DNA from: Chiloscyllium plagiosum
Taxonomy: Eukaryota
DNA: 64,000 bases
Assembly (NCBI RefSeq): GCF_004010195.1
Contig: NC_057723.1
Location: 39,033,425-39,097,424 of the forward strand
Direction: 5' to 3'
In this document: piece after piece, positions 5,337-59,250 of the stretch
How positions within the stretch are numbered: the first letter of the stretch is position 1
Layout of the letters: every line of letters begins with the position of its first letter
Program-made: the position numbers and the translations under genes
Notes under the pieces: model-generated
Databases searched by the model: none
Seen by the model: the letters and a program-made list of their open reading frames with translations, nothing else
What the model was told of the DNA's origin: nothing

Positions 5337-5372
5337 ATTCCTGATGAAGGGCTTTTGCCCGAAACGTTGATT
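5337..5372 (+). ncRNA. Minimal type-I hammerhead ribozyme motif (PLE-associated)
   Basis: CTGATGA (5341-5347), stem II GGGC-TTTT-GCCC, GAAAC (5361-5365), then a GTT triplet. Stem III is the palindromic ACGT type. Confidence 0.7.
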
Positions 5373-6169
5373 TTACTGCTGCTCGAATGCTGCCTGAACT
5401 GTTGTGCTCTTCCAGCACCACTAATCCAGAAACAGATTCTTGTGAGGCAAGCGTTTCAAAGATTATCCAGTGGTAGATGGCAATATGCAATTCAAAACAC
5501 AAACAGATCAGCCATGCTATTATTGAATGCCAAATGCTCCTAATTCACATGTTTGTAAAAAGTAAAAACATTGCATCTAACTCACTACTTCTTTAGATCC
5601 ATCTTCATCTCCACTCCTTCCCACTGCTTTCTCTTATTCTGCTCTCTCCTCTCATTCCAGCCCTCCCATTTCACCCTACTGTCCTATTTCCTGCCCTTGC
5701 TCCCTCCCCACTGCTGTATCCAGCAGCCTCCCTCATCGCTCTGCATGTTGTTCCTTTTCTACTCTTATTGTCACTTTTCTGCCATTCCCTCATCGCATTT
5801 TGCATTAAAATTACTTTTAATATTCAATCCTTGTGCACATTGCACAGGAGATCAACAAGTACCATTAAAAATATTTTGCTGTCATTCATTTTACTACACA
5901 TGTTTCTAACTCTTTATAATATGGCAACAATTATTTACTTGTATTGCTAGATTGCTTTATATGGTTATGGCAGATCACTCAATACTAATATTGAATATTT
6001 TCCTAGTTATGCATGTTAATTAACAATTGCCATTCTAGCATGTTTTATGTTAAATTGGGACATTTCCCTGTTGGTTGAAATAGCTACAAATATGCAAGCT
6101 AAAAAGTCCATGGGGTCAAATCAACATTACCCAAAAATATCAAGGAATATCATTTAGTTATCATAACTA

Positions 6170-6400
6170 AAAAAAAGTTATATTTACATGGTGTTTCTAG
6201 TAAAATATCCCAAAATGTTCCACAAACCATAAGGAATTACAAAGATGTCAAGCCAAGGAAGGAGATATAAGGAACTGTAGTCTAAAGGTAAGTCAATGAG
6301 ATGAGTTTGAGGAAAGATGTTAAAGAGGAGAGAATGAGGCCTAAAAGGCGAAAGTCATGACTTAACTGGGGGATAGGGAGAGGCGAAATGCACAAGCGGT
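6170..6400 (-). mobile_element. Very old LINE (L2-like) 3' remnant
   Basis: TTATATTTACATGG..CATCCC/TATCCCAAAATG.. layout is shared with the similar remnant at 22080-22340. Highly diverged. Confidence 0.4.
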
Positions 6401-7049
6401 TGAAATCAGAATTGTTATTTCTTTTTTTCTATGGGCGGGGAAAGAGTGAAGAAGTGTGACGTTTAGAAGAGGATGTGTTAAGAAATGATGTCATCAGTGT
6501 ATAAAGCACTGTGCTAATATAAAACTGCTGGAAATGAAGACGATGTAGATTGGGGTAGATATGAGATGTATGGGGCAACATTATTTAAAAATGCATTGAT
6601 GAGGCATTTTAATAGATGCGACATATGAGATTAAAACAATTTCCCGGTAAAGAGGAAACTATCGGTCTCGGGTTGAAATAGTTTGAGCCGAGTTAATGGC
6701 ATGGACGGGTGGCGCGGGAGAGTTTTTAAAGAGTTTGTGGCAAATGCGGAAAACGACTTTTCTGTTCCTTTTGTAATGCCGTTTTTTTTAAAGAAAAGAG
6801 TACATTCTAGGTTTATATCTTCGATACAATTCTAAGGCAGGATGAAAATTACAGCGCACTCAATGATAACCATCATAAATTACATTACTGGGCTCTAAAC
6901 ATATAACACCCTTAAATAGAATGAGCAAATGATGAACATACACACCAAACCAGGCAGCATCACAACGGACAGAGGTAGAAATTTAACCGTTCATTAGCAA
7001 GGGCAGACGGGGAGGGGTGAGGGTGTTGAAGTTATACCAAAAACACTTT

Positions 7050-7260
7050 TGACATTAATTAAAGCCCGAGTTTGAGGGCAATTGCATGGCATATTGTTCA
7101 CAGCCAGCGGCTAACAGCAGCCGTTGTAACTCGTTCAGAGGCTGACCTGACCTCGGCTTGTACTTCCCTCATTGGTGCAAACGCTGTGGTGTACAACAGA
7201 CAGCTTTGTGCGGGAGTTTGGGACACCAGCAAACAAATGTTGCAGCACATCCGTAAGTAG
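7050..7260 (+). promoter_or_regulatory. Putative promoter / 5' non-coding exon region of the mucin gene
   Basis: Locally repeat-free and CpG-retaining. Reverse CCAAT (ATTGG 7171-7175), TGACCTGACCT (7143-7153) and a consensus donor CC|GTAAGT at 7253, about 450 bp upstream of the ATG. Confidence 0.4.
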
Positions 7261-7706
7261 ATTGGAACACCTCCTGCAACAGGTTAATTACTAATAGATA
7301 GCAAACTGTTTCATGTTTTTTTTAGCAATCCCCCTTTTTAACATTGGACTAGAGCGTGTTAAGATGTCTCGCTTTTGCTCGATTTCCTTCTCTTGTGGTG
7401 GACCGATCAATGTCGGAGATTGTAGTGGGTTGGGTCTGTTGTCAATCTGACGCACCGTACCAGTTTACGCTGAGGTTAGTACAAACCTCGGCTGATTCCT
7501 TTCAGTTCCGGCAGCAGGCAGTTGCTGTTCAGATGGGTTGCGTTGTTTGCCGCACTATTTGTGCAGTTTCTGTTCTGGGAGAGATGATTGCAGATTCGAA
7601 TGCTTGCATTTCAGATCTCACGACCTGGTCTTAAGTTTTTCTTTTAACTGAACGACTGGATTGATTTTGTGGGCAAACCGAAAGGACCTGAATAATCTGA
7701 GAAACA

Positions 7707-7758
7707 ATGTGGGCGAAGTTTGTGCTGATTTTATGCCAGCACTTTATTCTTTCCTTGG
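7707..7758 (+). CDS. First coding exon (signal peptide) of a PARM1-like type-I membrane mucin
   Basis: ACAATGT Kozak-like context (A at -3). Encodes MWAKFVLILCQHFILSL + G, followed by a perfect donor G|GTAAGT at 7759. Phase 1 matches the next exon. Confidence 0.82.
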
Positions 7759-8329: not shown

Positions 8330-8995
8330 CAACTAATAGTCCGGCTCCGCACGGAACTGCACAAACTGGTTTTACAACTACATTTACATCAGAAAATTCA
8401 TCTACCAATTTTAGCTCACAAACGCCTCTCACCACAAACTTACAAAACACAGCAGCAACAGATGTAGAAACATATCCTTCACCTTCTTCCTTCACCCCAA
8501 CTATCTTGACAAACACAAGTCACGTAACGAGCACTGTGTTATCATCTGCATCATTGAACACCACTTCTCAATACCTCTCTCCGCATCTTAATGCTACAAC
8601 CATGTTATCAACATCAGCTCCCAACATAACTTTGAATAGCTCAGTCGTGGTGACCAGTTATTCACTCAATGTAACAAATAGCTCATCTCAGACTGATAAT
8701 GCAACCAGTGTAAATAGTACAACATACAGTCCTATGACAAGTAACACGACCCATACAACGTCACTTTATACTATTGACACCAACAATTCTTTCACAAGTA
8801 TGAAACCGACATCCATTCCAAATAGCACACAGCACAAAGAGTTTACCACTATAAAAGTCTTTACTACCACCTTTACAACACCAGAAGCTATCACCACCAT
8901 TCTATCATCCTCAAACACAACATATTTGCCAAACACCAGTACCACGACCAACAATACAGAACATCAGGATAGGATTGCATCTCCAAGCAAAGCAG
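8330..8995 (+). CDS. Mucin-like Ser/Thr-rich ectodomain exon of the PARM1-like membrane mucin
   Basis: Acceptor TTCTCTTTTTTTTCCCCTAG| at 8329. 666 nt open, encoding (A)TNSPAPHGT...RIASPSKA, with 17 N-X-S/T sequons counted. Donor CAG|GTAAGA at 8996. Phase 1-1. Confidence 0.9.
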
Positions 8996-9669
8996 GTAAG
9001 AATGAGTGTGACTAGTTCAAAGATGCTTAGGATATGAGGAGTCTGTGCATCAGTACTTTCAGAAAAAGTAAAATCATTGCAAAGATTTAAAGTGACCTCT
9101 GTCTATTTCCATTGGGTTCTGTGTATTTTTGTTGAAAAACTGAGAGATTATGCAATCAGCATTACTGGCAGAGAGATGGGACAGTGGCCAGTGACTAAGG
9201 GCATTGAATTTTTAATTTCAGTTAAATGGATAACTCTTGGAAAGAATTTAATTCAATAACCATAAGGCTGTAAAGTGCTAATGGATTTCTAGGCTTCATC
9301 TCAAGAGGTACAAAAGATAAAAGCTGATCATTATCTCTTTGCCTATATAAAATCTTAAAATGTCAGATTACTGTCTGCTGTATTGGTTTCACAATACAGG
9401 GCGGATGTTGAGGTTTAGGAGACAATATGATACATTTTATTATATTACTTCCTGGTAGGGTGAAATGTCAATATGGAGAAAGACTTGAGTTCAATTGGAT
9501 AAATTGAAAAACGCAGATCACAATTTTTGAATATTTGAGTTCACCTCTACATCATCTGACGTTCCCATAAAAAACAAGGACAACCAGCCTTTACCATTAC
9601 GTTGACAGCAAATTATGTTGTGTTATTCCAGAAAATGTCCACAAGAATGTTCTAGATGTTCATTATCAC

Positions 9670-10055
9670 AAAACCAAAATACTGCAGATAATGGAAATCT
9701 GGAATAAATATAGAAACATGCTGGGAATACTCAGCAAGTTAGGCATCACCTGTGAAGTGAGAAACAGAGTTAGATTTCAGGTTGTTGACCCATTTATCAG
9801 AAACAATATATATGAAAATGAAAGGCTCTGTTGAAACCATTTTATTTCTTCATCATCCCAGATTTCTGCATTTGTATGTCTCTCCGTGACATTCCAACTG
9901 TCTGAAAGTCTGAGATTGTCTTCGCATCATTCCGAAGAAGTCATTGGGCTCAAAACACTAACTCTGCTTCTGTCTTCATTGATACTGCCAGACCTGCCAA
10001 ATTTCTCCAATACTTTCTGTTTTTATTTCCAATCTCTAGCATTTATGGATTTTGC
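9670..10055. mobile_element. Decayed PLE-derived terminal repeats in inverted orientation (left arm minus ~9670-9805, right arm plus ~9925-10055)
   Basis: GAAACAGAGTTA..TTATCAG on the left mirrors CCGAAGAAG..AAAACACTAACTCTGCTTC..GATACTGCCAGACCTGC on the right. Both carry degenerate hammerhead-like cores. Confidence 0.55.
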
Positions 10056-10156: not shown

Positions 10157-10496
10157 ATTAGAGTGCTGCTGGAAAAGCACAGCGGTTCAGGCAGCATCCA
10201 AGGAGCAGGAAAATCAAAGTTTCGGGCAAAAGCCCTTCATCAGGAGGGGTGAGATGAAGGTGATAGGTCAGAGAGGAGGGTGGAGTGGATAGGTGGAAAG
10301 GAAGATAGGCAGGTAGGACAAGTCATGGGGACAGTGCTGAGCTGGAAGTTTGGAACTTGGGGTGAGGTGGGGGAAGGGGAAATGAGGAAACTGGTGAAGT
10401 CCACATTGATGCCGTGGGGTTGAGGTGTTCCGAGACGGAAGATGAGGTGTTCTTCCTCCAGGCATCGGGTGGTGAGGGAGCAGCGGTGAAGGAGGC
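10157..10496 (-). mobile_element. PLE (Neptune-type) 3' fragment with a 9-bp target-site duplication
   Basis: Same terminal sequence as 5337-5430 on the opposite strand (hammerhead core 10216-10243, cleavage triplet mutated). TCTCTCTAA flanks both sides (10148-10156 and 10497-10505). Confidence 0.82.
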
Positions 10497-11910
10497 TCTC
10501 TCTAAGTACAGTGACTGTGTTTTGGCGTAATCGATCCAGGTATTTTTCTGCCTACCTTGAGTTGAGAGTGTTTCTAACTCTTACTTTAGCTCTTTACTGA
10601 GCTGGATTGACTCAAGGGAGAGAAATTTTCCACATGTCCTGAGATTCTCACATTCTTTAATTCTGACATCTGCCTGTCCTGACATTACCTTCTCTGTATT
10701 TACTTTGTAGTTAATTATGCATCCATATAGTTATATGCTAAAATGTGAACAAATTGCTGAAAACTGAGCTTTTACTTCTCGGATTCTACAACTTCTTGCT
10801 CTGTGGTGTTCAGTCTATTCCCTGCTTTTTGTCCTCTCTTCTTTCCCTTTCTCCTGAAGCTACATTGCAATTCCCCTTGGCTTCACATTCTATCCCAATA
10901 GCCTTCATATTCAAAGGACCATCCTCCACCAGTTCCATCCTTCAACATGATGCTACTACTGAACACATCTTCCTCTCCCCTTCTCTGTCAATTGTCCCAA
11001 AGGAATTGCTGCCTTCATGACACCCTGGTCTATTCCATCAACACCGCCAAAGCTCATCATACTTCATCCCCTTGCTTTTATACTGCACGTCATATTAACG
11101 TCAGCTATTAATACTTATTCTGGATATATGTTATCTGGTTATTATTCTGGATACCTGTCTGTAATCATTGCCACTCCTTTTACCTTTTGTACTTTGGTTT
11201 CTAATCTCCCTTGCTCTGCAATCTTTCCCTTACCTTCCTTTCTGTTCCACTTGGACCTCCCCACCAGTTTTTACATTATAAAATCCATCACTTTCCCATG
11301 TATCTTCTGTTCCAAAAAAAAAGTTGATTCTGTTTCTTTCTCCATATGATGCCAAACCTACTGCATTTCTGCAGCATTTTCTGTTTTTATTTCTTCATTT
11401 CAGACTCTTTTGTTTCAGTGCTGTAATGACTGTGATCCTCAATGGTCTACCTAAGTATTCATTTTGCTCACTGCTTGAGTGCTCTCATGTTCCTATAAAA
11501 CACCTTGGGATGTTTATCTATTTAAAGATGGTATATAAGTGCAATTTATTGATGTTGGATAGAATCTGATCAACTGCACTCACCCCCATTATCAACAGCA
11601 TGTAATCCCGACTCCCGATATTAAGAGAGTAAGACTATAAGACATAGGAGTGGAAGTAAGGCTATTCGGCCCATTGAGTCCACTCAGCTATTCAATCATG
11701 GCTGATGGGTATTTCATCGCAACTTACCCGCACTCTCCCCATTGCCCTTAATTCCTTGTGAGATCAAGAATTTATCAATCTTTGCCTTGAAGACATCTAA
11801 CATCCCGGCCTCCACTGCGCTCCGTGGCAAAGAATTCCATAGGCCCACCACTCTCTGGCTGAAGAAATGTCTCCTCATTTCCATTCTAAATTGACCCCCT
11901 CTAATTTTAA

Positions 11911-12129
11911 TTTTTTTTTGGATTAGTGGTGCTGGAAGAGCACAGCAGTTCAGGCAGTATCCGAGGAGCAGCAAAATCGACATTTCGGGCAAAAGCCCTT
12001 TATTCCTGATGAAGGGCTTTTGCCCGAAACGTCGATTTTGCTGCTCCTCGAATGCTGCCTGAACTGCTGTGCTCTTCCAGCACCACTAATCCAAAATCTG
12101 GTTTCCAGCATCTGCAGTCATTGTTTTTA
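11911..12129. mobile_element. Mini PLE foldback insertion (inverted terminal repeats, arms ~82 bp) with a 15-bp TSD
   Basis: 11919-12000 is the reverse complement of ~12012-12093 with about 3 mismatches. CCCCTCTAATT(T/C)TAA lies at 11896-11910 and 12130-12144. Confidence 0.85.
12002..12037 (+). ncRNA. Minimal type-I hammerhead ribozyme motif with intact core and GUC cleavage triplet
   Basis: CTGATGA 12006-12012, A-GGGC-TTTT-GCCC stem II, GAAAC 12026-12030, GTC 12031-12033. Short stem I ATTC/GATT. Confidence 0.75.
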
Positions 12130-12325
12130 CCCCTCTAATTCTAAGGCTGTGCCCCAGGTCCGAGTCTCCCCGCCTGACGAAAACAAATTCCCAGCATCCA
12201 CCCTTTCTCGGCCATGCACTATCTTGTAAGTTTCTATTAGATCTCCCCTCAACCTTCTCAACTCTAATGAATACAATCTCAGGATCCTTAGCTATTCATC
12301 ATATGTTGGGCCTACCATTCCAGGG

Positions 12326-18399: not shown

Positions 18400-19610
18400 T
18401 TTTTTTTTTCTGAAAAGTGAGACAAGTTTCTGATGCTTTTCATCTTGCACTTATCATTGCCAAATCTCAAATGTTCACAAGAATTCATACTGCAGAAGAG
18501 GAGGGCACTGATTGGTTGCTAAGCAGACTCTGGTTGGCTGAGATGTTGCTGTGGAGAAAGCAATAGGACTGTAGGTTTAATTCAGAAAGGCACAAGGCTT
18601 GCTTGTTTATCTTTTGTTTGTAGAGAACAGGTCTGTTCATATGAATGTATGTCACATCTGGCAAGCACTAAATGAACCACACTGTGGGCTTGATTGATTA
18701 TCTTAAATTGTTTGTTAGTGTAGTGTGATTGGTGTTGTGTGATGTTAGTGTAGTTATTAACACACTCAGGATTATCGAGCATGTTGGTTTTCAAAAATGA
18801 CTAGAAATGTGAACATGTTAAGCAAGTTGTTTCACACTGCTATTAGGCAGTGGCTACACATATGATATTTTCCCTTAACAGAATGCTGCTGTCATTCTAC
18901 AAAGACTTGCTGTCTGTCACACAACTGATCAGTGGAATATTTGAATTTCAGTGCCAGTGCAATGCCAGATATGTATCATATATACCAACGATTGGCTGAT
19001 TGAAGCAAACAGTGCTTTCCTTTGGCTTTTTAAAATACAGACTATACTCAACAATCTCGCATTTACAAAATATAAAACAAAATATCTACCTTTTAGATTT
19101 GATTCTGCAATTGGGCAGCATTGTTGAACAATTCTGAGTGCGCTAATAGTTACAGTGACAACCAATTTCAGATAATCAGATGAACTTGTAACATGGCTCA
19201 TTTACATTTGTTAGAAGTGACATACATTTGCATTCCCTGTTGCTTTCTCTGTGTCAATGTCTCAGCCAATCAGAGTTGTCTTGTCAACTAATTAGTATTA
19301 GAATCATAGAGATCTGTAGTACAAAAAAAAAGCCCTCCAACCCACCAAATCTGCACTGGTCAAATACAACCGCCTAACTATTCTAACCTGATTTTCCAAA
19401 ACTTGGTCCACAGCCTTTTATGCCTTTTGACATCACATGTGTACATTTAAATACTTATTACAAACACTTTTCTTCTATAGTACAACTTATCCTGATCATT
19501 TGAATCTTGGCATTCTTATGTTTATCCTGATGAATGCAAGATGAAAATCTGAAGAAACATGTCTTTTCAGTCTCTCTCTTTTCAGTAATGTTTAAGTTCA
19601 GCACCAACAA
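18400..19610. mobile_element. Third PLE family as an inverted pair (minus ~18400-18790; plus ~18880-19610, interrupted by a LINE tail at ~19295-19455)
   Basis: Plus arm encodes a decayed GIY-YIG (..FEFQCQCNARYV..QRLAD..DSAIGQH..NNSECANSYSDNQFQII..AHLHLLEVTYI). Minus arm encodes LDNPECVNNY..QFKIINQAHSVVHL. CTCAGCCAATCAGAGT mirrors ACTCTGGTTGGCTGAG. Core CTGATGAATGCAAGATGAAA at 19527-19546. Confidence 0.7.
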
Positions 19611-19881
19611 ACATTTGGTTGTTCATTTACCAGCATATTGTTGAGTCATGCTACATTGCCTCATGTTTATAGCATGTTATAATGAATGAGAAATGCAGGA
19701 TAAATTGAATGAATTATGTATATGTACAAGGGAGCAGATCTTGACAGTAAGTGTGTTTTATCAATATGAGATCAAACTTGGATGCAATAATACTTTATAA
19801 AGTACAATTCTGATGGGGAGAGAGACAAAACGAAGTTTAATTTTTACATTACATCTTTTTTTTGAACATGAGATTGAACGT

Positions 19882-22340: not shown

Positions 22341-24019
22341 TGGGGTTGTGTAACAGGTCAGAGTTAAGCTTTACACCTTGATAAGGGTCACAGTCCATAT
22401 CTGTATGCCATGCATCTCCGATCTGGCAGTGGTCAGGGAGTGCTGTCTTCACAAGTACTGGGTGTCAATTTTTTAAGTTACTTCACAGGATATGGTGTGA
22501 AGTTGCCAATTCCTATTTGCTTCACATGTGATCAAGGTTCATAATAAGTTCAGGTGCCTGTTGACTCTTTCCAGAGAGCATCATAATTCTTGTTACTCAG
22601 ATTTTTTAAAAAAATCCCCTTTTTAATGTTTTACTCACATAGAATTTTCAACTCTGGCCACATTTGCACTTCTTGAAAATATCAAAATCAGACTTGGGCT
22701 TCTTGCATAATTTTGGTAATGAATTGCCTTTGCAAGAGTGTTGGAAAGATACACTACCATTCAACTTGGTGCAAATGATAGGTCATGAATTTTTTGATGG
22801 AGTTCCAGCTATTTTTGTGAAAGAGCCACAGAAACCTTAAAAGAAAACTGTGTAAGTACTGCATTTTAACCATTTCCAAGGCACTGCAGCTACTTCTCTG
22901 GCTTTCTAATCATTTGCTTGGAAACTGCATTTACATCGGCTAATTTTCGCTCACAAGTATTCCTTATATCAATACATTACAAGAAAAGTCATAAATGTTG
23001 GCAGCTTATAATGCGGCATGAGTCCTTTACAACATTGACATTATTATTTCAGCATTATGTACATTGCAGTTTGTCTTTAATCAGAAAGAACAACATGAGT
23101 TCCCAATAGTATATTTTACCCAGAGCCTTCTGGCAAGTAGAAAGTGCTTTGTTTTTGATGTTGCTACTCAGAGATATAGGCAAACTGGTTTAACTGGTAA
23201 ATGAATTTAGAAATGTTAATTTGTTGGCTGGGAAATTTTATTCTTTAACAATATGTTTCCTCATCCTTCTAAGTCAATAACTCATCACACGCATGGCATA
23301 GAAAACTAAATCCTAGGGAAACTACTCTTTCTTGAGGATTATATGCTTATGAGGCTGTATCCAGGGGCAGAATGGTTTTATTTTACCACAGTGGATGCTG
23401 GGTAAGGTATTTCCCAATTCCATAGAATAATTTGAAATTACATAGTACAGGGTATGACCATTTGGAAAATATGGACACCTGCAAAACGAGAGAATGATAC
23501 AGGTGTCAAATGTACTTACACATCACACTAGTGCACAGGTAGAAAGAATATTCCCTTCCCAGTGAACTATCCAACATGAAATGCTTGGGAGAAAGACTTT
23601 GGGGTAAATTTGATCAAAAATCAGCTAAGGTCCTTGCATTGTTCACCAGTAAAGTCTATGTGTTCAGACAGACAAGATCCACCCACCTTGGGCATGGCAC
23701 AGTCATTTTTCGATCCTTTGCACATTTGTGGTTTGGTTGAAGATGAAAGACCACACAGGTTGCATGTCACAGAGTGAGTCATAAGCTCAGTCTGTCAATC
23801 TATGTGATCCCCAAAGCTTGATGTTCTCCACTGCGTTCCTGTTGATCCCATCAATTCTGAGAATCCTCCAAATCTTATGTTTTAAGATTTCATCTCCCCA
23901 CTTTACCTCCTCAACCCCAGACCTTTGATTTAGTTATGGCAAATGTTGTGATGCACTGTCCCACCCATTAAAGGTTTGTGATGGCCATTGGTAACTCATG
24001 CCCTTTAATGGTCTATCAT

Positions 24020-24360
24020 CTAGGGTGTAGGTTTGCTCGCTGAACTGTGTAGGTTTGATATCCAGACGTTTCAGTACCTGGCTAGGTAACATTATCAGTG
24101 GCGACCTCCAAGTGAAGCGAAGCTGTTGTCTCCTGTTTTCTATTTATATGTTTGTCCTGGATGGGGTTCCTGGGATTTATGGTGATGACATTTCCTGTTC
24201 GTTTTCTGAGGGGTTGATAGATGGTATCTAGATCTATGTGTTTGTTTATGGCATTGTGGTTGGAGTGCCAGGCCTCTAGGAATTCTCTGGCATGTCTTTG
24301 CTTAGCCTGTCTCAGGATAGATGTGTTGTCCCAGACGTAATGGTGGTTTTTTTTTCATCT
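24020..24360 (-). mobile_element. PLE (second family, Poseidon/Penelope-like) 3' fragment with hammerhead motif
   Basis: Minus strand encodes WDNTSILRQAKQRHAREFLEAWHSNHNAINKHIDLDTIY. Hammerhead-like CTGATAA-TGTTACCT-AGCC-AGGTACT-GAAAC-GTC at 24098-24065. Confidence 0.8.
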
Positions 24361-34037: not shown

Positions 34038-34113
34038 GAACAGCTTTAACTGTTATAGTGTGTTTGCTTGTTGTCGTCGCAATAATTGGGTTGGTGATAT
34101 ACTTAAAGAAACG
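34038..34113 (+). CDS. Transmembrane exon of the PARM1-like membrane mucin
   Basis: Acceptor TTTTTGTATTTTTATTAACAG| at 34037. In phase 1 it reads (G)TALTVIVCLLVVVAIIGLVIYLKK(R), a hydrophobic helix plus basic stop-transfer. Donor CG|GTAGGT at 34114 (phase 2). Confidence 0.85.
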
Positions 34114-37100
34114 GTAGGTTCATACAATTTAATGAGGTCAGTGGAATAGTACTAACCAGAATCCATTAAAAGAATACCAGCATGTCTCTTCCATAGAGAC
34201 TCTATGCTATTAAAGTAGGGAATGTCAATGCTCAGAGATCACCTTTCAGTACCATGGGTCTGTGCCAATCCTCCTGGGCCATGTTCTCTCCACACTGTCC
34301 TATGGGGCAAATCCTAAAACAGGCAATTATTAAACATCTATAATGATGAATAAACATCTTTCTACTCTGTCCCAACAAATTGCTTTAATCCTATCCTCAA
34401 AGCACCTCCAATATTATGACAGACATTTTCATATTTCCTATACCAACCATTTTTACTTCCTAAATAAGCAAAATTGACTATAACAAATTTAACCAGTTTT
34501 GTCCTGTAGTCTTTTGAATGCTGGGTATTACAGAATCATAGAATACACAAGACGCCCTTCGGCACATACAGTCAACACAGACAGAAATGGCTCTAAATGT
34601 ACACTAGTTCTACCATTCAGCACTTTGCACATAGCCAAGAATGTTATGAACATTTCAAGTTGCCATTCCAAGTACTTTTACAAATTGAGTAGAATTCTCA
34701 CAGATACCACTGAAAAGTATTTTCATGTCATTCTGGGTTACAGCCAAACTTGGTTCCCAAAAATAAAAGAATAGTGATAATAGTTTTTCCCACTGTAATC
34801 ATATTGAATGATGGTCAGAAATTGATTACCAGAAAAAAAGTTAGGTGTATATAATGTAATGGCAATACACATCTTACAGATGTTACTAGAAATTTATTGT
34901 TTTAATTAATTGACTTTGTCTCAGCATGAAATGCAAAGCTTAAATCTATGTTGCTATGAATTTATAAATGTACAACTCAAGTCGATAGTACTAACAGATC
35001 TTGTGTTCCTTGGGTCCACAATTTTCAAACTGCAAACCAATAAATAAAAAATCTAACAATAATTAAGGATGATATTTCCTAATTTTCAAGGACTGAAATG
35101 CCATGGTGCCAGGACTGCAAGTCTTCATGTGATTTATAAGCTACAGTTCAGATATCCCACTTCTAGTCCATCTTAAGTATAAAAATAATGACTGGGGTAA
35201 AGTTTGTCCTCAGTGGTGCGGGTTTTCATGGTGTAATTCAACGAAAATTTGTGTAACTCTTCAAACAATAGCAGATTTTTAAGTGCAAATAATATTCAAC
35301 ACAAACTGAGTTTCCACAAGGTCTCGAGGAACCTGCAAAGATTCAACTTATTTTTCATGCAAGTACTCCAAAAGGCACATTTTAAAAGATGTCAAACTGA
35401 TTACTTCAATATAACTGGTATAATGTATCTAGAACAAAAAAAATGCCAACTCCTAATAATATGACAGCAGTGTTTTGGCATTGACATGCCTGTCTTTAAA
35501 ATTTGCCTTTAAAAACAACTGTCTTTAAAACAACTTGGTACAGATGAATTTCAATTGTTCTTGCCGGGAATACTTTGTTGTGACAGGAGTATGCTTTCTG
35601 TGTATTGAGATTTCACTTAGCTTTCCTTTGACTGAAAATCCAGACAATAAAACATTTCCAATTCCTTCCTCCATCAATCAATTCTATCTTAAATAACATT
35701 AAACAATACATGTGACCCAATTAAATGGAAGTTGTAACCTTTGGATTTTTGTATAAGACATTTGAAACCAAAAACTAGGACTGGCCAAAAAATTTAGAAA
35801 ATTCGTTTGAATTTATTTTCAAGAGTGTGCAGATGTATTAATGAATGTACATTGATTTACCTTGGATAGATTTGAGAATTCTGAGCTGAAGGTGATTTGC
35901 TGTTGCCAGTGATTTAAGAAAATATGCAATCGTATTCCCTTGACAAAAATATTAAAAATCCTTCTTGCCTTATTGTAGGAGAGTGTTCTATAGCCGCCTG
36001 GAGGAAGACTATACAACTGGATCTTGGAGCAATTACAACAATCCTGTGTTTGAAGATTTATGACAACATTTTTTTAAGTTATTACTTTTACGTACAAGAG
36101 GCATCAAGCAACAAATGTACATATCAAGCATTTTCTTGAAAACAATGTTAAATTCTGAATGCTTTTTCATTTTGTTGGAAGCTGGAAAACAAGGTGAAAT
36201 TAGTCTTGGGTGCTAGCAAAAATTGGTAATTGTAATTCAGCAGCCAATGTGCTTTATTTACCTTGTTGGCTGCTTTGAGTTACTCCCCAGTCCAATTTAG
36301 TGCTCTCGTACCCTAGTACTCAACAGCTTTATTTTCACTCATAGAATCTATTTAAGGCTTTTAACTTGACAACATCAACAGTACTTGATCAAGTTATCAA
36401 ATTACAGTGGCAGATCCTGGTATATAGCAACTGCAACCTGAGCTGGTGTTTTATATGTCAACCTTGCAGACTTGTTTTTGAAAATCTCAGCTTCATTTTC
36501 TTTAAACTTGCTTAAGAAAGAAGTTGGCTGCATGGTTAAAATGTACTTTATTTTCTGCTGATATAAATAATGTTAATATTCAAGCTTGACTATAATAACT
36601 AGCCCATGTAGTTATTGTTACATACATACAGCAAATTTGACTAACTACAGACTAGCATGTAGAAAAGTAGTTTCTGTTCCTAACAGGAATGTTTTGTGTT
36701 TTAGTGGTCAACTGATATCATCAAAGATGCAGCTGAAAAGCTAAACACTTTGTCGCCAACCTTGGATGCACAGTATTTACTATAACGTTTATTTAAAGAG
36801 AGGGACCTTGATTTTATGTTGACTTGATTTATTACTGATGCATGATTTAACATTGGTCAAGTTACCTTAGATTAGTTAAAAGTATATTTCAAACTACTGC
36901 AAAATCTATCTTTGAATACAGCTAAAGTTCTTAAAAAATGAGAATACCTCAACCAAAACAGGTTATTAAACTGTAAAGATAGTCAGGAATCAAGATGTAG
37001 ACATTTTGATTGTATATTTATGCAGAAAAAGGAATCATGATAATGCTTCCTGTCAAACATGCTGGATAATCATAACCTGTCCTTTTTTAGCTTGCCTGTA

Positions 37101-38057
37101 TAATATGAAGAAGGAATACAGGTGGTGTTTTTACTGTGCAGAATGCCAAATATGACATTGTATCTATGATGTCATGATTGGGCTCAATGCTTGCTTCAGA
37201 GTTTTAAGGAATATCTAGCCTAGATACAAGTTAGAATGTAGTATAAAATAAAACACATGGTAAATGGTGGTTTCAAGGCTTTTATTCAATAAGCAATTAC
37301 ATGTAATGATATTTATATGTAATCTATGAATTTGGATGTGGTCACACTATTATCCGTTTTCCTGAGCGTTATTGCTGATAGAATGGATATGATGAGGAAC
37401 ACCATTTGTTACAATAAAATACTTTTTTAAATGACTATTTTGGAACAATTTTGGCATAGGTTCAGATTTTTTTATGTCCTACACTATTCAGCAAAGCATG
37501 GAAGAAAAGCAGTCTTCCTTTTTGCTCAAGAATCCAAATTTCTACCTGATCTTAGTTCACCATTGGTGCTTAACATGAACTGGTGAGACAAGAGATCAAC
37601 AGACAAATTTATTTTATTCCTCTACAGCTGATGAAAAAATTAGAACAGAATAAATTTGGCTCCCCCAATGTAAAAAATAAAAATTTGCTCATTGTTTATA
37701 TATAATCATTTTACATAAAGACTTAGCCTAGCCACCTACAGGCATTTCGACCAAGCCATTTTCCAAGAAGAATATGATTTTAGTTTTGAAAAATGAAAAA
37801 ATAGTTGCATATGGTTCTTTGTGAGTAAAATTACGAATCTAATAATAAGGAAATGACTAAACAATATTGCTCATTATTCAATAATGAGAATATTAATTTT
37901 TATTTACTAAAAGATGGTTGTTTATTAAAAATATTAATGTAATCTTTCAAAGAGCAGCCTAAAATTCCAAATTTTCTCCAATTTATGGCCTCCAAATGAG
38001 ACTTGTGTTTGGTGAAGGTTTTTGACTGACTTTGAAAGGAAAAAAAAGTGGGTGTCC

Positions 38058-41100: not shown

Positions 41101-43679
41101 GAATGGTGCTTGCCATTCACTTTGTTGACAGCTGCCCATAAGGTTTTCTCAGACTTTTGAACAGAGACTTGCATTACTCTAGCACCTGTTCCAGAATGAC
41201 ATCCTCTGCAGGGGATTTCTGGGTTGTGAAAGCAGGGCATGCAATGGTGAGGCTTTTCAACCAATGAGATTGAGTAATTGTTATGAAGGTACATAAACAG
41301 AATTCTCACTGACCTGACCTGCAGACAGTGGGTTAATCAGAAAATCAGAGAAGACCTAGTATAGGGATATGTCTCATGATATTGAGGTTAAATTCCACAG
41401 TGTGTTAGTCATGTCAGTGATCAGTTCCCTGCCCAGAGGCCAACTAGATTAACAAACATCTCCTAGGGGCAAGTATGTATGTTTTGCAGACAAAGAGAGA
41501 CATCAAAGAGAGACAATCAGGCTGAACATGATCCTCAGAGTAAAGGAACACACTGTGATTGCAATATCTGGTTGAGTCAGCCCTTCTGAAACAATGGAGT
41601 ATCGGCAACACCTCAAAAAATAGCATTCTTGTTATGATTAGAATACTCCATGTTAATGTTTGCCAGCTATATTTCTTACAGATTAGAAGTCCTTGTACAT
41701 ATTCATGTTAGATCATATTGTTTTTTTTTAAACCAAAAAGCATATGATAAAAATGCATGCTCATAGATTCTATACACTCATGTAAACACATGATTACATA
41801 AGTCATTGTCATCACGGCAAGTGATGCAGTATGTAACATGATGCAGCAGCCATCATAATCTGCACACAGTGTTAGATAAAGCAATGGTAAGAAAAGGCCT
41901 CCATTAAAGGTCGTGCTCTACCTCTACATCTGCCTTCAGTCTTATCAGTATCTAAAAGAGGTAACAAGCAAGGAGGTTTGATTACAGGTATGGCAATTAG
42001 GTAAAATACAATTGAGTGAGGATGTGGGCGATCAATAACTGCAATCAGTATGGGCCAACAAGTAGGGCAAGCTGTTGATCACAACAATATTTTCATGAGA
42101 GGGAAAAGGCTGTGGGTAGGGAAGTATCTGAAGGCCTTAATGGGTGCTTTAGAAGGGGCTTCCAGGTCTGATTTGATGCCAGGGTGGTTAAGTGGAGGAA
42201 ATAAGATCTTTGGAGGGGAAAAATTGTTGGGGCTAGGATTAATGAATCTTCATCACACTGCTGGATCTGGGGGTAAACATGAAAGCACTTAACTTCTTTA
42301 TCCTGCCTATCTTCCTCACTTTGAGGAAGCGTCTGTGGCTTCGGAAATCTGGCCACAGTAGTGAAAATCCAAAATCTGCATGGCAATACTGCCATTCTGT
42401 GAAAAAGTTACACAAGTGCACTTAAAATGAATTTTCACTGTTGTTCCAGCACTGTCATACTAAAAGGGGACTTATCACCCTACTTTAGGTGACAGGCCAT
42501 TTTAATTTGTGAGAAAGACCTGTGCAGACCTGGTTACAAATCTGACAGAAACCTGCATGGAACAAGTGCTGCATGGGCTGGGGTCAGTTTTACCAGTTTA
42601 CAAAATAACAGGTGCAAAAATGTTCACTAAAAACTTATTTCTGTGGAAGTCCAAGAGCAGGAATACTGTTTTGACCATCACAAGATAATGTGGGATGTTG
42701 ATGGCTTGCCCTTTTCTCCATTCACATACGAGCACTATATTAAGCTGTTCCCTTCACTTCCTCCCATTTGACAATGTTGGCCTATAAATTGCCTGATAAT
42801 GAGACAATCCAGAGTTGGTAAACTGAATGTGACTCGGAGAAAGTCAGGATTGCAGATGCTGGAAATCAGAGTCGAGAGTGTGGTGCTGGAAAAACACAGC
42901 TGGTCAGGCAGCATCCGAGAAGCAGGAGAATTGATGTCTCAGGCATAAGCCCTTCATCAGGAATGAGGCTTGTGAGCCTTGTGGGTGGAGAGATAAATGG
43001 GAGAGGGGGTGGGGCTGGGGTCAAGGTAGCTGAGAGTGCAATAGGTAGATGAAGGTGAGGGTTATAGTGATAGTTTGGAGACGATGGTGGAGCGGATAGG
43101 TGGGAAAGAAGATGGACAGGTCATGAGGGTCGTGCCAAATTGGAAGTTTGGAACTGGGATAAGGTGGGGTAAGGGGAAATGAGGAAACTAGTGAAATCCA
43201 CTTTGATGCCATGAGGTTGGAGGGTCCCAGGATGGAAGATGAGGTGTTCTTCCACCAGGTGTCAGGTCATTAGGGTGTAGCGATGGAGGAGGCACAGGAC
43301 CTGCGTGTCCTTGGCACAGTACGAGGGGAAATTGAAGTGTTTGGCCATGGGGTGGTGGGGCTGGTTGGTGCAGAGGACACTCCCCCTCCCATTCCACCAA
43401 GGACATGCAGGTCCTGGGCCTTCTCCATCACCACACCCTAACCACCTGACACCAGGAGGAAGAACGCCACAACATAACGGCCCGATGCCTGGAGGAAGAA
43501 CGCTTCATCTTCCTCCTTGGAACCCTCCAACCACATCAATGTGGATTTCACTAGTTTCCTCATTTCCCCTCCCCCATCTTATCCCAGATCCAATCTTCCA
43601 GCACCGCCCTCATGACCTGTAGTAACTGTCCATCTTCCTTCTCACCTATCCACTCCACCCTACCCCCCCCAACCTATCC

Positions 43680-44010
43680 NNNNNNNNNNNNNNNNNNNNN
43701 NNNNNNNNNNNNNNNNNNNNNNNNNNNNNNNNNNNNNNNNNNNNNNNNNNNNNNNNNNNNNNNNNNNNNNNNNNNNNNNNNNNNNNNNNNNNNNNNNNNN
43801 NNNNNNNNNNNNNNNNNNNNNNNNNNNNNNNNNNNNNNNNNNNNNNNNNNNNNNNNNNNNNNNNNNNNNNNNNNNNNNNNNNNNNNNNNNNNNNNNNNNN
43901 NNNNNNNNNNNNNNNNNNNNNNNNNNNNNNNNNNNNNNNNNNNNNNNNNNNNNNNNNNNNNNNNNNNNNNNNNNNNNNNNNNNNNNNNNNNNNNNNNNNN
44001 NNNNNNNNNN
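43680..44010. other. Assembly gap (331 N)
   Basis: Run of N in the sequence. Confidence 1.
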
Positions 44011-44090
44011 TATTACCCCCATCTTCATTTACCTATCCCACTCTCATCTACCTGCCCATTTACCTCACTACCCCTTGGCTCAGAAGCCTC

Positions 44091-44126
44091 ATTCCTGATG
44101 AAGGGCTTTTGCCTGAAATGTCAATT
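44091..44126 (+). ncRNA. Minimal hammerhead ribozyme motif (slightly decayed)
   Basis: CTGATGA 44095-44101, GGGC-TTTT-GCCT, GAAAT, then GTC at 44120-44122. Confidence 0.6.
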
Positions 44127-44307
44127 CTCCTGCTCTATGGATGCTGCCTGACCTGCTGTGCATTTCCAGCACCACACACTCGAAACAACGTGACACCTAT
44201 TTAGTGCTCCTTCAGGCGTTAAAATGACAAATGAGGAGTAAGTATGCATCTTTTGTTTTGTCCAGTGTCTACTACATTCAAAGTGCTAATTTCTGTAATT
44301 GTACTAA

Positions 44308-45409: not shown

Positions 45410-46460
45410 AAACCCCGCATCCTGCAAAAACTCCATCAGTTTTCCCAATCTTCTTCTCCGTTGTATCTGTTCTGACGAGCTGTCCGCCTATTTTAAACAA
45501 TGCGCTTTTCCCCACTTCTGTCAAACCCACTTTACTGCTCTTAACCCCTTCCCCTCCAAACATAATAAAGATAGAGTCCCCCTTGGCTTCACTTTCCACC
45601 CCTTTAGTCTCAGCATCCAACGCATCATCCTCAAATACTCCTGCCAACTTCAGTTAGACCCCACCAACCAGAACATCATCTCCTCCCTGCCTTCCACAAG
45701 AACCGTTCCCTTTGTCACTCCTTAGTTCGCACCACTTCTCCCCACCAATCCCCCAGTACCTTCCCCTGCAACTGTAAAAGATGCAAATCCTGCCAGCACA
45801 CCACCTCCCTCACCTCCACCCAGAGCCCCAAACAGTCCTTCCAAGTGAGACAGAGGGTCATCTGCCTCTCTCCAACCTAGTTTACTGTATCCGGTGCTCC
45901 TGATGTAGTTTTCTCTACCTTGGTGAGACTAAACATAAAGTTACGAGAATGTTTTGGCAAATATCTCAGCCGGGGTTGTAAGGGCCAGCCTGACCACCCA
46001 GTCACTGCCCATTTCAATTTCCCTTCCCACTCCTTCTCCAACATGTCCATCCTCAGCTTCCTCCATTGCCACAGTGAATCAAATTGTAAATTGGAGGAAC
46101 AATACCTCATCTTCCTCCTGGGCACCTGTAGCTCAGGGGATTCAACATTGAGTTCTCCAATTTCAAATAACCTTTCCACCCATCCCCCAACTCCCTTTCC
46201 AGCCCCATTTCCTTCCTTTCCAGGCTACTTCCTCCCTTTTATTCCACCTACCGAGCTTTGCTTCCAGCTACCAACCAGATTCACCCCTCCCATTGACCTA
46301 TGAACATTGACACCTATGCCTCACCACTCTGCCCCTCTCTCCGCCCAAAACCCTTCCCTCTTCCCTCCAACCCCACCTCCATTCCTGAAGAAGGGTTATA
46401 CCCAACTCTTCTCCACTTCCTGATGCTGCCTGGCTTGCTGTGTTCTTCCAGCCTCCTGCT
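45410..46460 (+). mobile_element. Older PLE (Neptune-type) 3' portion
   Basis: HPASCKNSI..LLLRCICSD, TFPCNCKRCKSCQH, NLVYCIRCS*CSFLYLGET (GIY-YIG) and KLEEQYLIFLLGT. Degenerate core CTGAAGAAGGGTTATACCC at 46385. Confidence 0.82.
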
Positions 46461-53619: not shown

Positions 53620-54410
53620 TGTTTAGATTGTAAATTTGCTCGCTGAGCTGGCAGGTTTGTTTTCAGACCTTTCATCATCATGCCAGGTAACATCATCAGT
53701 GAGCCTCTGGTGAAGCGCTGGTGTTCTGTCCTGCTTTCTATTTGTGTGTCTTGGTCTGTTACAGTGGGTGATATCATTTCCAGTTCTTTTTCTCAGAGTT
53801 TGGTAAATGGGGTCCAAATCAATGTGTTTATTAAAGAAGTTCCAGTTTGAATGCCAGGCTTCTAGGAATTCCCGTGTGTGTCTCTGTTTAGCCTGCCTTA
53901 GAATTAAAATGTTGTCCGAAGTGGTGTCCTTCTTCATCTATTTGTATGGATATTAGTGATAGTGGGTCATGTCTTTTGGTGGCTAGTTGGTTTTCATGTA
54001 TCATGGTGGTTAGTTTTCTGCCTGTCTATCACTATCTGTCTGACCAACTACCACTAGTATCCTTACATACAGATGAAGGAGGACACCACTTCGACTAGGA
54101 CAAGGCTAAACAGAGACACACACACGGGAATTCCTAGAGGCCTGACATTCAAACTGGAACGTCATCAATAAACACATCGATTTGGACCCTATTTACCAAC
54201 TACTGAGAAGACGAACCGGAAATTATATAACCCACCGTAACAGACCAAGACATAAATTGCAAGTGGGGACAGAACACCAGCGCTTCACTGGAGGCTCACT
54301 GATGAAGTTACCTAACATAGTGATGAAATGTCTAAAAACAAACCTGCCAGCTTAGTGAGCAAACTTACAACCTGAACCTCAAACTAAGCAACACATCTTC
54401 TCAAGAATCG
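53620..54410. mobile_element. PLE (second family) inverted pair: minus arm ~53620-54026, plus arm ~54040-54410
   Basis: Minus ORF ..RQAKQRHTREFLEAWHSNWNFFNKHIDLDPIY. The plus arm is the same sequence in opposite orientation. Hammerhead cores at 53699-53666 (minus) and 54299-54332 (plus: CTGATGA..GAAAT-GTC). Confidence 0.85.
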
Positions 54411-56375: not shown

Positions 56376-58109
56376 ACTAATCATGGGGCCAGAACCCATG
56401 AATTAACTCATCATCCACAAATTAGTTGTTAAGATAATTTTCTTCCTTGAAATGATCATGGAAAGGGGACTTTGGAAGGAAAAACACATCTTGACAGCTT
56501 CTTGGAAATTTCAATTTGACATACAAGATCTTAAAAATGCCATCAATATTAGGAAACACTTTACAAGTGTTCCATAGTCTTGGTTTCAGGTCACCTCGCC
56601 TTGCTTGGAGTTGCTTGGAGATAGAAATTATGAAAAAGTCAACATCAATTTTTTTTCAGTAAATTCTTTAGTAAATGCTTGAAAAAAATTTCACGTATGC
56701 TAGACTTCAGTTAAGACCTGCTAGAGGAACAGAAACATGAAGGTTAAATACTTTAGTCGTAATTTCACAAGGAGCAGTCAGAATTATATCAGAGCCAGCC
56801 TGTGAAACATTTGGAAATCAAATTAGTTTCTAGTCATGTGATATTAGACAGTAATGTATTTGCTATTGCACAACTTATTCACAAAATCATGTGGCCTCTT
56901 TCTTTTCTCAGGGAAGAAAGGAGAATGACATCATGAACCAAAATTAGCACCTACAAATTTGTGCCCAGATTCCTTAAACTAGTTTATGTATCCAAAATAT
57001 TTTGTCCATTGTTAACAAACATTTGGATATCCTAAAGAAGGATATTTCCTATTTTTTTCTTTTGAATGAAAAATTTAGATGAAGGGTTAAGCCAAAAACA
57101 AAAAAAAACTATTTTCTATTCTCTACCTGTTTTGGATGGGCAGCTGGCTGACTGAGAGCAGGTTAAATATGTAGATGCTACATGAGTTGCAATCTATTTG
57201 GTGGAGAAGATCTAAGGCAGTAGAATCAGCAATTCTGAGAAATCAGAAGCAACCTTTTGATTTTGTTTAGAAGGTCTCCCTCCTTTGCTACCAGGTTTTA
57301 CTGAACAGGCTGCCCAAGGCCCACTCAGTCAGCAGCAGAAATATCATTGGAATTCTTTGGATGTTATAGGTTCTAAGATCTAATTATAAAGGAGGCTCCT
57401 AACTGAGGTAGGTTGGAACCTCTGGCGCTTAATAAAAGGGACCAACTAAGAAGGTAGTATATGGAAATTGAGCAAGATCAAAAAGGGAAATCAATGCACA
57501 GGTATTTTAATTGTCCAACTGTGCCATTCCCAGAATGGGTTCACACTATGCCCTATCCCATAATAATGCTTGATGTGTATACGCATATGTGAAATTCTTG
57601 GCAATAAAATGTAATGTATACCATTAAATTAAAAGAAATAATGAGGATATAAATGAATCAATTTCAGAAATTCATCTGAGGTTTCAATTAGATTAAATCA
57701 AGCCAATGATAACATAAATTTTACATTCCAGAGAACAAAGTTCTATGTTTCTATTTGCAAATTCTTAAAGGGTTCAAATGCAAGTTTGAAGTACACTACT
57801 GCACACCTCACAACCTGTTGTGGAAAAGTAAAAAATTTAACTGCAGCAGACTGTAAAATGCTCAGTACTCAGGGATTACCCACTGGGAATGGGATTAAAT
57901 TTGGAAAAGTCAATTTTGCGACATTATTTATGGACACTGAAAAAGGATTTTAGGAACTTTTAAGGTGTCTTGGCTAGAGTCAGTGCAGGAGCTACTGAAA
58001 AATGTATGACGGCACCTTCAGTATAGAAGAAATTTAATTCTCTGTAATTCGTCACAAAGTAAATGAACATAATACCCCAGAATCAGTGTTTGATGTACAG
58101 CAGAACCCC

Positions 58110-58520
58110 AAGTGGAATAAAGGGAATGTAGGAAGTGTAGAGGAGAAGCAGTGATGAGTGAGGAGAGCGAGTAGGAGTGGGAATGAAATAGGAGGGAGTT
58201 GGAAAGAACATAATGGGAGGAAAAGAAGAAAGAGGGTACAGAGGGAGGGACTTTGGATAAGGTAAGGGGTATGTGGATGGGATGGAGGGGCAAGAGCAGG
58301 AAGGGAGGAGCAAGGGGAACAGGGAAGAGTGAAATCAGCAAAGAGGGAAGCAGGGATAGGATGGGAAGAGAAGAGCAGGGTAGATGTGAATGGTCTAGAA
58401 GAGGGTGGGGAAGAAGGGATAAGGCAAGGAGAGAGGAAGGAGAGGAGGTGGAGGAATGTGGAGGGGCAAGTAGAAGAGCGAAAGGAAAGTGGGGGATGCA
58501 AAAAATGGAAGAGCGGTGTT
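58110..58520 (+). repeat. Purine-rich (G/A) low-complexity tract
   Basis: About 400 bp dominated by GGA/GAG/GAA on the + strand with no clean periodicity. Confidence 0.8.
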
Positions 58521-58854
58521 GTGAGGGATTTGAGTGACATGCACAATGGCAAGATATTTGTGAGAACACAGCAAGAATGGAAGAATTAGATTCTCCATAC
58601 CTGGATAATAAAGTCTGATTTTCTCTTTATGATTTTAATGGTTAAATAAGAATTTCACTAGTGAGTAGTGAGGACCCTATTTTCATCTTATTATTGGTTA
58701 ATCTTGTCCCACTCCTATGCAGTGTGTGATTCCTCAGCTGGAAGGCCCCAGTTCCTGAGTTGAACATTTGAGCTTTTATTTGGTGGCTGCAGATCACTGG
58801 TGTGTTCTCTGGAGCATCCTGCTGGCTATCATTTACCAACATTTCAGAACAACA

Positions 58855-59120
58855 GGGGTCCTCAAGATGAGCTTCTGATGTTTGGATCAATCTGGACGGG
58901 CCTTGCGATACACCCTCTACACAGAATGGGCTGCATAATCTGACCCTGTAAAACTGCAACAGACAACCTGGACTGTCATGGACATCGAGGAGCTGGGGGG
59001 GGGAAGAGAGAACAGCAGACTTCTGAGGAGGAAGATGAGGACAATGACCAGGAAGGGCATCATTTTCACCATGATAAACTGATTCAGCATCAGATAAGAC
59101 AAGCCAAACAAGAATTAATT
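58855..59120 (+). mobile_element. Harbinger/PIF (HARBI1-like) transposase C-terminal relic
   Basis: 58855-58914 reads GVLKMSF*CLDQSGRALRYT, matching the HARBI1-family motif G.LK.RFRCLD.SGG.LQY. An acidic stretch SEEEDEDNDQEG follows. Confidence 0.6.
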
Positions 59121-59124
59121 AACT

Positions 59125-59250
59125 GGGAGAAAGTAAACACTGCAGATGCTAGAGATCAGAGTCGAAGAGTGTGGTACTGGAAAAACGCAACTGGTCAGGC
59201 AGCATCCGAGGAGCAGGAGAATCGATGTTTTGAACATAAGCTCTTCATCA
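59125..59250 (-). mobile_element. PLE terminal fragment with a degenerate hammerhead core
   Basis: GGAGAAAGT..TGCAGATGCT..GGTCAGGCAGCATCCGAGGAGCAGGAGAATCGATG..TTCATCA is the same terminus as 42836-42960. Confidence 0.8.

What the first reader, a model, noticed from the sequence alone, without database searches (positions are those of the whole stretch)
5337..59250. About a dozen hammerhead-ribozyme motifs from several PLE families scattered through and around one gene
Seen: the core CTGA(T/A)GA-stem II-GAAA(C)-GTH recurs with different stem II sequences. Family A (GGGC-TTTT-GCCC): 5341+, 10243-, 12006+, 42960-, 44095+, 46385+, ~59250-. Family B (TGTTACC..GGTA/GTGA): 24098-, 53699-, 54299+. 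Family C (TGCAAGAT): 19527+, ~18457-. Family D (degenerate): ~9800-, ~9932+. Established: Penelope-like elements carry minimal type-I hammerheads whose loop-less palindromic stem III (GAAACGTC) is thought to need dimerisation. Inference: a conserved catalytic core with unrelated stem II across families argues for real ribozymes, and this density implies a very large genome-wide ribozyme load that protein-based annotation would miss.
Basis: partly seen in the sequence, partly recalled or inferred. Interest (0 to 1): 0.72.

Follow-up and report, generated by a model that had tools for sequence, protein, structure and literature searches.

The report
Penelope hammerheads, with traces of cutting
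These motifs are mostly worn-out copies of a known tiny self-cutting RNA (minimal hammerhead) in the end repeats of Penelope-type jumping genes; this genome holds about 208,000 intact-looking cores, and a few copies elsewhere are fused to U6 RNA exactly at the predicted cut, which likely records real cutting in living cells.

Summary
All 14 motifs exist, but only 2 (12006+, 5341+) keep every core position. They are minimal type-I hammerheads in the end repeats (pLTRs) of Penelope-like elements, a class described in 2014. A and D are one lineage; B and C are separate; GIY-YIG remnants lie upstream (weakly shown for C). The window is ordinary for its genome: 16 remnants against a mean of 21 per 64 kb, with no special tie to the PARM1-like gene. 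Genome-wide there are 207,923 intact-core matches (157 in reversed controls) and about 1.2 million remnants by extrapolation. Selection acted on source elements: a 1,493-copy subfamily swaps C3-G8 for U3-A8 (98 of 100 listed). Inserted copies decay, are mostly lone or head-to-head, and 12006+ is predicted to be locked in a hairpin, so the active load is far below the count. Copy 5' ends pile up at the ribozyme's front edge, not at the cut. But 7 of 7 U6/family-A junctions (6 insertions) join at the first base after the cut, indirect evidence of cleavage in vivo. The scan had already noted the count, the pile-up and the U6 fusions on other DNA; I re-tested them. No cleavage assay was possible.

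The parts
5341..5368 (+). Family A minimal hammerhead, all core positions intact, GUU at the cut site; lone copy 2.2 kb upstream of the gene
4952..5258 (+). GIY-YIG endonuclease remnant of the same 5'-truncated PLE (broken frame), directly upstream of the 5341 motif
   Evidence: tblastn 85%/71% to a family-A EN that passes Pfam PF01541 cut-off; window piece E=0.0097, below cut-off
7517..7758 (+). Exon 1 of host gene (predicted signal peptide)
   Evidence: contigs of two runs guessed to be RNA, GT..AG joint to 8330; translation
8330..8996 (+). Exon 2, Ser/Thr-rich mucin-like stalk
9715..9800 (-). Family D remnant (A/D lineage), G8>A, palindrome lost; head-to-head with 9932+
9932..10022 (+). Family D remnant, both boxes damaged
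10162..10497 (-). Family A copy: EN C-terminal remnant (10393-10497) then hammerhead at 10243 with broken palindrome
11318..11386 (+).
11896..12140 (.). Palindromic family A stub inside a CR1 LINE: 11-bp target duplication (11896-11906, 12130-12140), inverted arm 11919-12003, direct arm with tail
12006..12033 (+). Only fully intact GUC hammerhead, sense strand of intron 2, predicted to be locked by the inverted arm
   Evidence: stem II probability 0.0 with the arm, 0.99 without; hairpin -167.5 kcal/mol
18407..19615 (.). Old family C head-to-head insertion: motifs at 18457- and 19527+, both damaged, with element body between (18587-18781 -, 18813-19230 +)
24019..24351 (-). Family B copy: EN C-terminal remnant then hammerhead at 24098 (G8>A)
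34038..34113 (+). Predicted exon 3, transmembrane helix
   Evidence: script prediction only
35979..37680 (+). Predicted last exon, PARM-type tail, and 3' UTR
   Evidence: Pfam PF17061 E=1.8e-5, 25.4 bits, below the cut-off of 35; poly(A) signals at 37649/37676 fit the 2,646-nt contig
42875..44177 (.). Family A head-to-head insertion: damaged motifs at 42960- and 44095+, EN remnants 43193-43369 (-) and 43384-43533 (+)
45782..46452 (+). Divergent A/D subfamily: EN remnant 45782-46126, motif at 46385 with second box deleted
53624..54376 (.). Family B head-to-head insertion: damaged motifs at 53699- and 54299+, EN remnants between
59168..59250 (-). Family A stub that begins inside the first catalytic box; G12>A

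Best explanation
The motifs are minimal type-I hammerheads in the end repeats of several Penelope-like retrotransposon families; they likely work only in the RNA of intact source elements, while the copies in this window are decaying insertions that are predicted to be inactive. Shown: motif anatomy, link to GIY-YIG remnants, paired changes between subfamilies, decay in copies, copy number. Inferred mechanism: a source element with two end repeats is transcribed from just before the ribozyme; two cores pair through the palindromic helix III (ACGU, AGCU or AAGCUU), probably helped by the element's own protein, and cut slowly after UH, leaving a 5'-OH. Most new insertions are copied from uncut RNA, starting in the tail and running off its 5' end, which gives 100-130-nt stubs and head-to-head palindromes that start at the ribozyme's front edge. 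Occasionally the cut 3' piece is ligated to U6 snRNA (likely by RtcB) and then inserted.
For: GIY-YIG remnants upstream on the same strand for 5 of 7 family A window sites and 3 of 3 family B sites, and for family E. Core unchanged at 11 of 11 positions among 13 family A subfamily consensuses while N7 and loop II vary at 4 of 5 and the flank at 15 of 47 (Fisher p=0.05). Compensatory stem II pairs (G-C to A-U, C-G to U-A); palindrome CG in A/B, GC in E. U3-A8 subfamily: 1,493 copies; of the first 100 listed 98 are U3-A8, 1 C3-A8, 1 U3-G8. CpG core positions decay in copies like flank CpGs (14 of 105 vs 33 of 257, p=0.87). 5' ends: 48 of 91 non-inverted A copies at risk and 9 of 18 E copies end 12 nt before to 3 nt into the core (4.3 and 3.9 per 100 nt vs 0-1.2 elsewhere). 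U6 junctions: 7 of 7 at the first base after GUC, six different subfamily sequences, 0 at the front edge. Literature: single min-HHR inactive, dimers weakly active (PMC4209133); Anolis PLE ribozyme needs the protein and uncut RNA is the main substrate (PMC11167929); U6 ligation needs a 5'-OH (PMC6789731).
Against: No cleavage was measured. 957 raw reads laid on 5245-11600 showed no place where many molecules begin or end (poly(A) single-cell library, mostly reads of other copies, 2% of the run). Ordinary copies show no clear pile-up at the cut (11 of 127 ends at +28..+32, mixed on inspection). Non-CpG core positions differ less than flank within subfamilies (21 of 1,144 vs 193 of 5,611, p=0.004): I read this as unresolved sub-lineages and HMM ascertainment, but some selection on copies is not excluded. 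Family A stem I is weak (C-G, U-A, a U.U mismatch) and monomers are predicted to misfold. The U6 set is small and only the A/D anchor was tested. The extra-G (cap) signal is partial: 8 of 10 at one position in A, 18 of 54 overall, 2 of 12 in E.
Confidence: 0.85

Rival explanations
1. The inserted copies themselves form a large active ribozyme load that cuts host transcripts, for example 12006+ cutting the intron of the PARM1-like gene.
For: About 208,000 intact cores; 13 same-strand intact pairs within 6 kb among 104 intact cores in 180 stretches; lower non-CpG divergence in the core.
Against: Only 104 of 601 remnants are intact; 12 of 14 window sites are damaged; 244 of 452 A/D remnants have a head-to-head partner, which puts the two cores on opposite strands; 12006+ is predicted locked; monomers were inactive in vitro (PMC4209133); CpG decay is neutral.
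Confidence: 0.08
2. The motif is kept as a protein-binding or promoter/start signal of the pLTR and no longer cuts; the hammerhead look is inherited.
For: Copy 5' ends sit at the front edge of the motif in two unrelated families; cleavage was not needed for insertion in vitro and no cut-site reads were found in Anolis (PMC11167929); Naiad elements spread without canonical hammerheads (PMC8557442).
Against: The C3-G8 to U3-A8 swap keeps a pair that matters in the catalytic fold; U6 junctions sit exactly at the scissile bond.
Confidence: 0.06
3. Chance matches to a short consensus.
For: The descriptor is short; Rfam hammerhead models do not hit.
Against: 207,923 vs 157 in reversed controls; 63 vs 0-5 in Markov controls; fixed position in PLE ends.
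Confidence: 0.01

Closest known systems
Minimal hammerheads (min-HHR) in pLTRs of metazoan PLEs (Cervera and De la Pena 2014, PMC4209133)
   Same: Type I, bulged base between 9 and 10.1, G10.1-C11.1, palindromic 15.2-16.2, several families per genome, mostly single truncated copies, opposite-strand pairs, and a U3-A8 variant (reported there in Schistosoma).
   Different: Count: about 208,000 here against about 4,000 (coelacanth) and 9,000 (Xenopus) there, with different descriptors and assemblies; family A stem II is 4 bp, not 7-8; no shark in the parts I read.
PAc Poseidon element of Anolis (Frangieh et al. 2024, PMC11167929)
   Same: pLTR hammerhead, internal reverse-transcription start giving a tail, uncut RNA as main substrate.
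   Different: No cut-site reads found there; here U6 fusions mark the cut. Families A/D and E carry a CxxC linker before the EN (Neptune-type by the description in PMC8557442; clade not tested by a tree).
EN+ PLE insertion layout: inverted pLTR, tail, target duplication (PMC3846280; PMC8557442)
   Same: The 11896-12140 stub has all three.
   Different: Here reduced to about 100-nt arms joined at the ribozyme, at very high copy number.
U6/LINE-1 chimeras made by RtcB (Moldovan et al. 2019, PMC6789731)
   Same: U6 ending in five T joined without extra bases to a retrotransposon 3' part.
   Different: The partner is a PLE and the join is fixed at a ribozyme cut site.
Non-LTR retrozymes (bioRxiv 10.64898/2026.07.22.740005)
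   Same: Type I hammerheads derived from PLE pLTRs, found in one chondrichthyan.
   Different: Retrozymes are head-to-tail tandem arrays; the window copies are not.

Membership tests
PLE minimal hammerhead | CUGANGA and GAAA boxes, UH, type I order | tested here: met
   all family consensuses; 2 of 14 window copies
PLE minimal hammerhead | Unpaired base between 9 and 10.1; G10.1-C11.1 | tested here: met
   A/D, B, E; family C has G-C but no bulge
PLE minimal hammerhead | Palindromic helix III | tested here: met
   ACGU, AGCU, AAGCUU
PLE minimal hammerhead | Location in pLTR downstream of a GIY-YIG/RT ORF | tested here: met
   A: Pfam PF01541 over cut-off, window remnants; B and E by tblastn similarity to that EN, RT by Pfam in the E locus
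PLE minimal hammerhead | Same, for family C | tested here: inconclusive
   majority sequence of 10 old copies reads like a GIY-YIG domain by eye (recalled motif); no Pfam or profile hit
PLE minimal hammerhead | Covariation among families | tested here: met
PLE minimal hammerhead | Self-cleavage as dimer | not testable with these tools
   indirect only: U6 junctions
Canonical hammerhead (Rfam models) | Stable helix III and loop I-loop II contacts; Rfam match | tested here: not met
   no hammerhead hit at E<=10
Non-LTR retrozyme | Head-to-tail tandem units each with a hammerhead | tested here: not met
   no same-strand tandem motif in the window
Domesticated intronic hammerhead (amniote RECK type) | Single-copy, conserved across species | not tested
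   no relatives held; 12006+ is one of 18,175 identical 28-mers, which argues against

The most novel reading that the evidence does not exclude
This genome holds the largest single-genome set of hammerhead cores that I found on record, and its DNA records both ends of the PLE RNA life cycle: stubs that map the transcript start to the ribozyme's front edge, and U6 fusions that fix the in-vivo cut at the predicted bond, the first genomic evidence that animal PLE minimal hammerheads cleave in germ-line cells.
Probability: 0.7. Interest if true: 0.72.

Novelty: new member of a known kind. Interest (0 to 1): 0.55.

Why it matters
Whether the weak minimal hammerheads of animal PLEs cut in vivo is open: the 2014 paper had no in-vivo evidence, the 2021 paper calls their function unclear, and the 2024 paper found no cut-site reads. 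The U6 fusions, the U3-A8 subfamily and five natural families give exact substrates and a predicted bond to test. The count shows that roughly one remnant per 3 kb of this genome derives from a ribozyme, though most are dead. The window itself and its gene are ordinary.

Tried and rejected
Rfam scan: no hammerhead hit. Local enrichment around the gene: rejected. Pile-up of ordinary 5' ends at the cut site: not convincing. RNA ends at the cut: none in one raw-read run, a weak test; a second run laid 0 reads. No RNA holder on record was listed. RNA support for exons 3 and 4 was not obtained, so they stay predicted. Genome-wide PF01541 search gave 1 match of 150 scored, uninformative. tblastx for coding links of C and E in the sample found none; later solved for E. 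Automatic alignment of 12 motifs misplaced family B, so no pair count was run on it. First blast-based end mapping was confounded by palindromes and redone. ESM Atlas on the mucin exon: one weak hit, ignored. Lunse et al. 2017 is not held: only its title was seen; its figure of about 150,000 variants over many genomes is recalled, and it may include sharks. One of three supplementary files of PMC4209133 could not be searched; bioRxiv supplements are closed.
Full report
Observation. All 14 named motifs are in the sequence within one base of the stated places. Position by position, only 12006+ (GUC) and 5341+ (GUU) keep both boxes, stem II, the palindrome and UH; 50 Markov controls of the window gave a mean of 0.08. 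Rfam finds no hammerhead at E<=10. Profile HMMs built from the window and sample copies find 16 remnants, none in reversed sequence.

Families. A and D cross-hit and share the downstream flank, so they are one lineage with varied stem II; B and C are separate; a further family E (palindrome GC) is common in the genome but absent from the window. GIY-YIG remnants lie upstream on the same strand at 5 of 7 family A sites (5341, 10243, 42960, 44095, 46385; query passes Pfam PF01541) and at 3 of 3 family B sites. Family E is tied to an EN and an RT in locus L235. Family C is old: 53 exact matches to its 26-base pattern, 51 with the CpG decayed; homology runs about 900 nt upstream and the majority translation looks like a GIY-YIG domain by eye, without a Pfam hit. 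The organism is likely a shark; this rests on recalled repeat types and earlier scan notes, not on a call of mine.

Gene. Contigs from two runs guessed to be RNA show exons 7517-7758 and 8330-8996 joined GT..AG on the + strand, in a 2,646-nt contig. Scripts predict a transmembrane exon at 34038-34113 and a last exon from 35979 that matches Pfam PARM below its cut-off; poly(A) signals fit the contig length. So the gene is PARM1-like. Seven motifs lie in intron 2, one upstream, six downstream. The one intact sense copy in the intron, 12006+, is half of a palindrome with an 11-bp target duplication; its stem II has probability 0.0 with the inverted arm and 0.99 without.

Scale. One exact 28-mer occurs 18,175 times. 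Patterns with both boxes and a CG or GC palindrome match 160,714 and 47,209 times against 139 and 18 in reversed controls; these patterns enforce only the first pair of stem II. In 180 evenly placed 10-kb stretches (1,736,124 non-N bases) there are 601 remnants, 104 of them intact, giving about 1.2 million by extrapolation; resampled 64-kb windows hold 21 on average (5-95%: 12-31), so 16 is ordinary. Cervera and De la Pena reported about 4,000 in coelacanth and 9,000 in Xenopus (PMC4209133, parts 1-2 of 4 read).

Selection. Copies were clustered on the downstream flank; 165 of 309 A/D, 13 of 35 B and 45 of 70 E copies fell in clusters under three and were dropped, and one cluster of inverted arms was skipped. 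Among 13 family A consensuses 0 of 11 core positions vary, against 4 of 5 at N7 and loop II and 15 of 47 in the flank (p=0.05); the two varying stem II positions are one G-C to A-U pair. One A consensus shows CpG decay in the palindrome and one B consensus at G12. A subfamily of 1,493 copies replaces C3-G8 by U3-A8: 98 of the first 100 listed carry both changes, 2 carry one. The same swap was reported in Schistosoma (PMC4209133; the only paper with that term). Within subfamilies, CpG sites decay equally in core and flank (14 of 105, 33 of 257); non-CpG core sites differ less (21 of 1,144 vs 193 of 5,611, p=0.004), which may reflect unresolved lineages or ascertainment but is a result against pure neutrality.

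Arrangement. Of 452 A/D remnants 244 have a head-to-head partner within 1.5 kb and 139 a same-strand one; only 13 same-strand intact pairs lie within 6 kb. The inverted layout with tail and duplication is known (PMC3846280, PMC8557442; passages). 5' ends of non-inverted copies fall 12 nt before to 3 nt into the core in 48 of 91 A and 9 of 18 E copies at risk, four times or more the rate in most other bins; duplications flank 14 of 48 and 5 of 9 of them against 4 and 0 in controls. No clear pile lies at the cut. An extra G, as expected from a cap, precedes 8 of 10 A copies that start exactly at stem I, but only 18 of 54 over all nearby starts and 2 of 12 in E.

Trace of cleavage. Earlier scan notes pointed to U6 fusions. 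Using this genome's U6 end and an anchor 17 nt past the cut, with a free gap of 4-34 then 30-60 bases, all 7 matches have the same gap: five T joined to the first base after GUC, in six different subfamily sequences; two are arms of one palindrome; none lies at the front edge where ordinary stubs start. Four overlap full-length U6 hits. Mature U6 ends in five U with a cyclic phosphate and RtcB joins it only to a 5'-OH (PMC6789731, passages), the end that a hammerhead leaves (established knowledge). I tested the A/D anchor only. Raw RNA reads gave no end pile-up, a weak test.

Mechanism and status. Most likely the ribozyme acts in source-element RNA as a slow, probably protein-assisted dimer (PMC4209133; PMC11167929, parts 1-2 of 4 read), most insertions come from uncut RNA, and inserted copies decay. 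The class is known. In print I found no shark PLE hammerhead survey, except one chondrichthyan in a retrozyme preprint (parts 1-2 of 5 and passages), and no U6-PLE fusion; Lunse 2017 could not be read. Other papers seen as passages: PMC6155905, PMC6765202, PMC4494074, PMC4350176. Verdict: new members of a known kind at an unusual scale, with good indirect evidence for cutting in vivo; the window and its gene are unremarkable.

Noticed in passing
G000 genome-wide; loci L226-L233: A/D subfamily with U3-A8 in place of C3-G8, 1,493 copies, with a self-complementary 4-bp stem I.
   Followed up: yes
G000 C1:38728242, C3:3076509, C7:109202579, C10:45249799, C11:5559496, C31:9507338-9507641: U6 snRNA copies joined to family A pLTRs at the first base after the predicted cut; the C31 case is a palindrome.
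   Followed up: partly
L121-L145; window 18457-, 19527+: Family C has a 2-bp stem II; 15 of 25 copies carry the complement of loop II 5-22 nt upstream, a possible pseudoknot.
   Followed up: partly
L235; sample-wide: Family E, not in the window: 47,209 intact-pattern matches, palindrome GC, 5-bp stem II, linked to EN and RT.
   Followed up: yes
L001-L020, about 16 nt before the core: In one young A subfamily a pyrimidine tract plus CAG precedes the ribozyme like a splice acceptor; in Drosophila Penelope an intron ends at helix I.
   Followed up: no
L039:2224-2450 (-), L095:2259-2593 (-): Short same-strand pairs of intact cores 226 and 334 bp apart, natural dimer candidates.
   Followed up: no
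window 63082-63196 +: Degenerate 5S rRNA-like piece, 27 bits, below gathering score.
   Followed up: no
window 60468-62479 -, 12439-14358, 351-2400: LINE fragments with RT and endonuclease domains (CR1 type by recall); the 12006 stub is inserted into one.
   Followed up: no
window 19877-20091, 30134-30208, 56172-56331, 59418-59693: Copies of a tRNA-type SINE (type recalled).
   Followed up: no
L029:4217-4289: 36-nt tandem repeat made from the pLTR flank downstream of the ribozyme.
   Followed up: no
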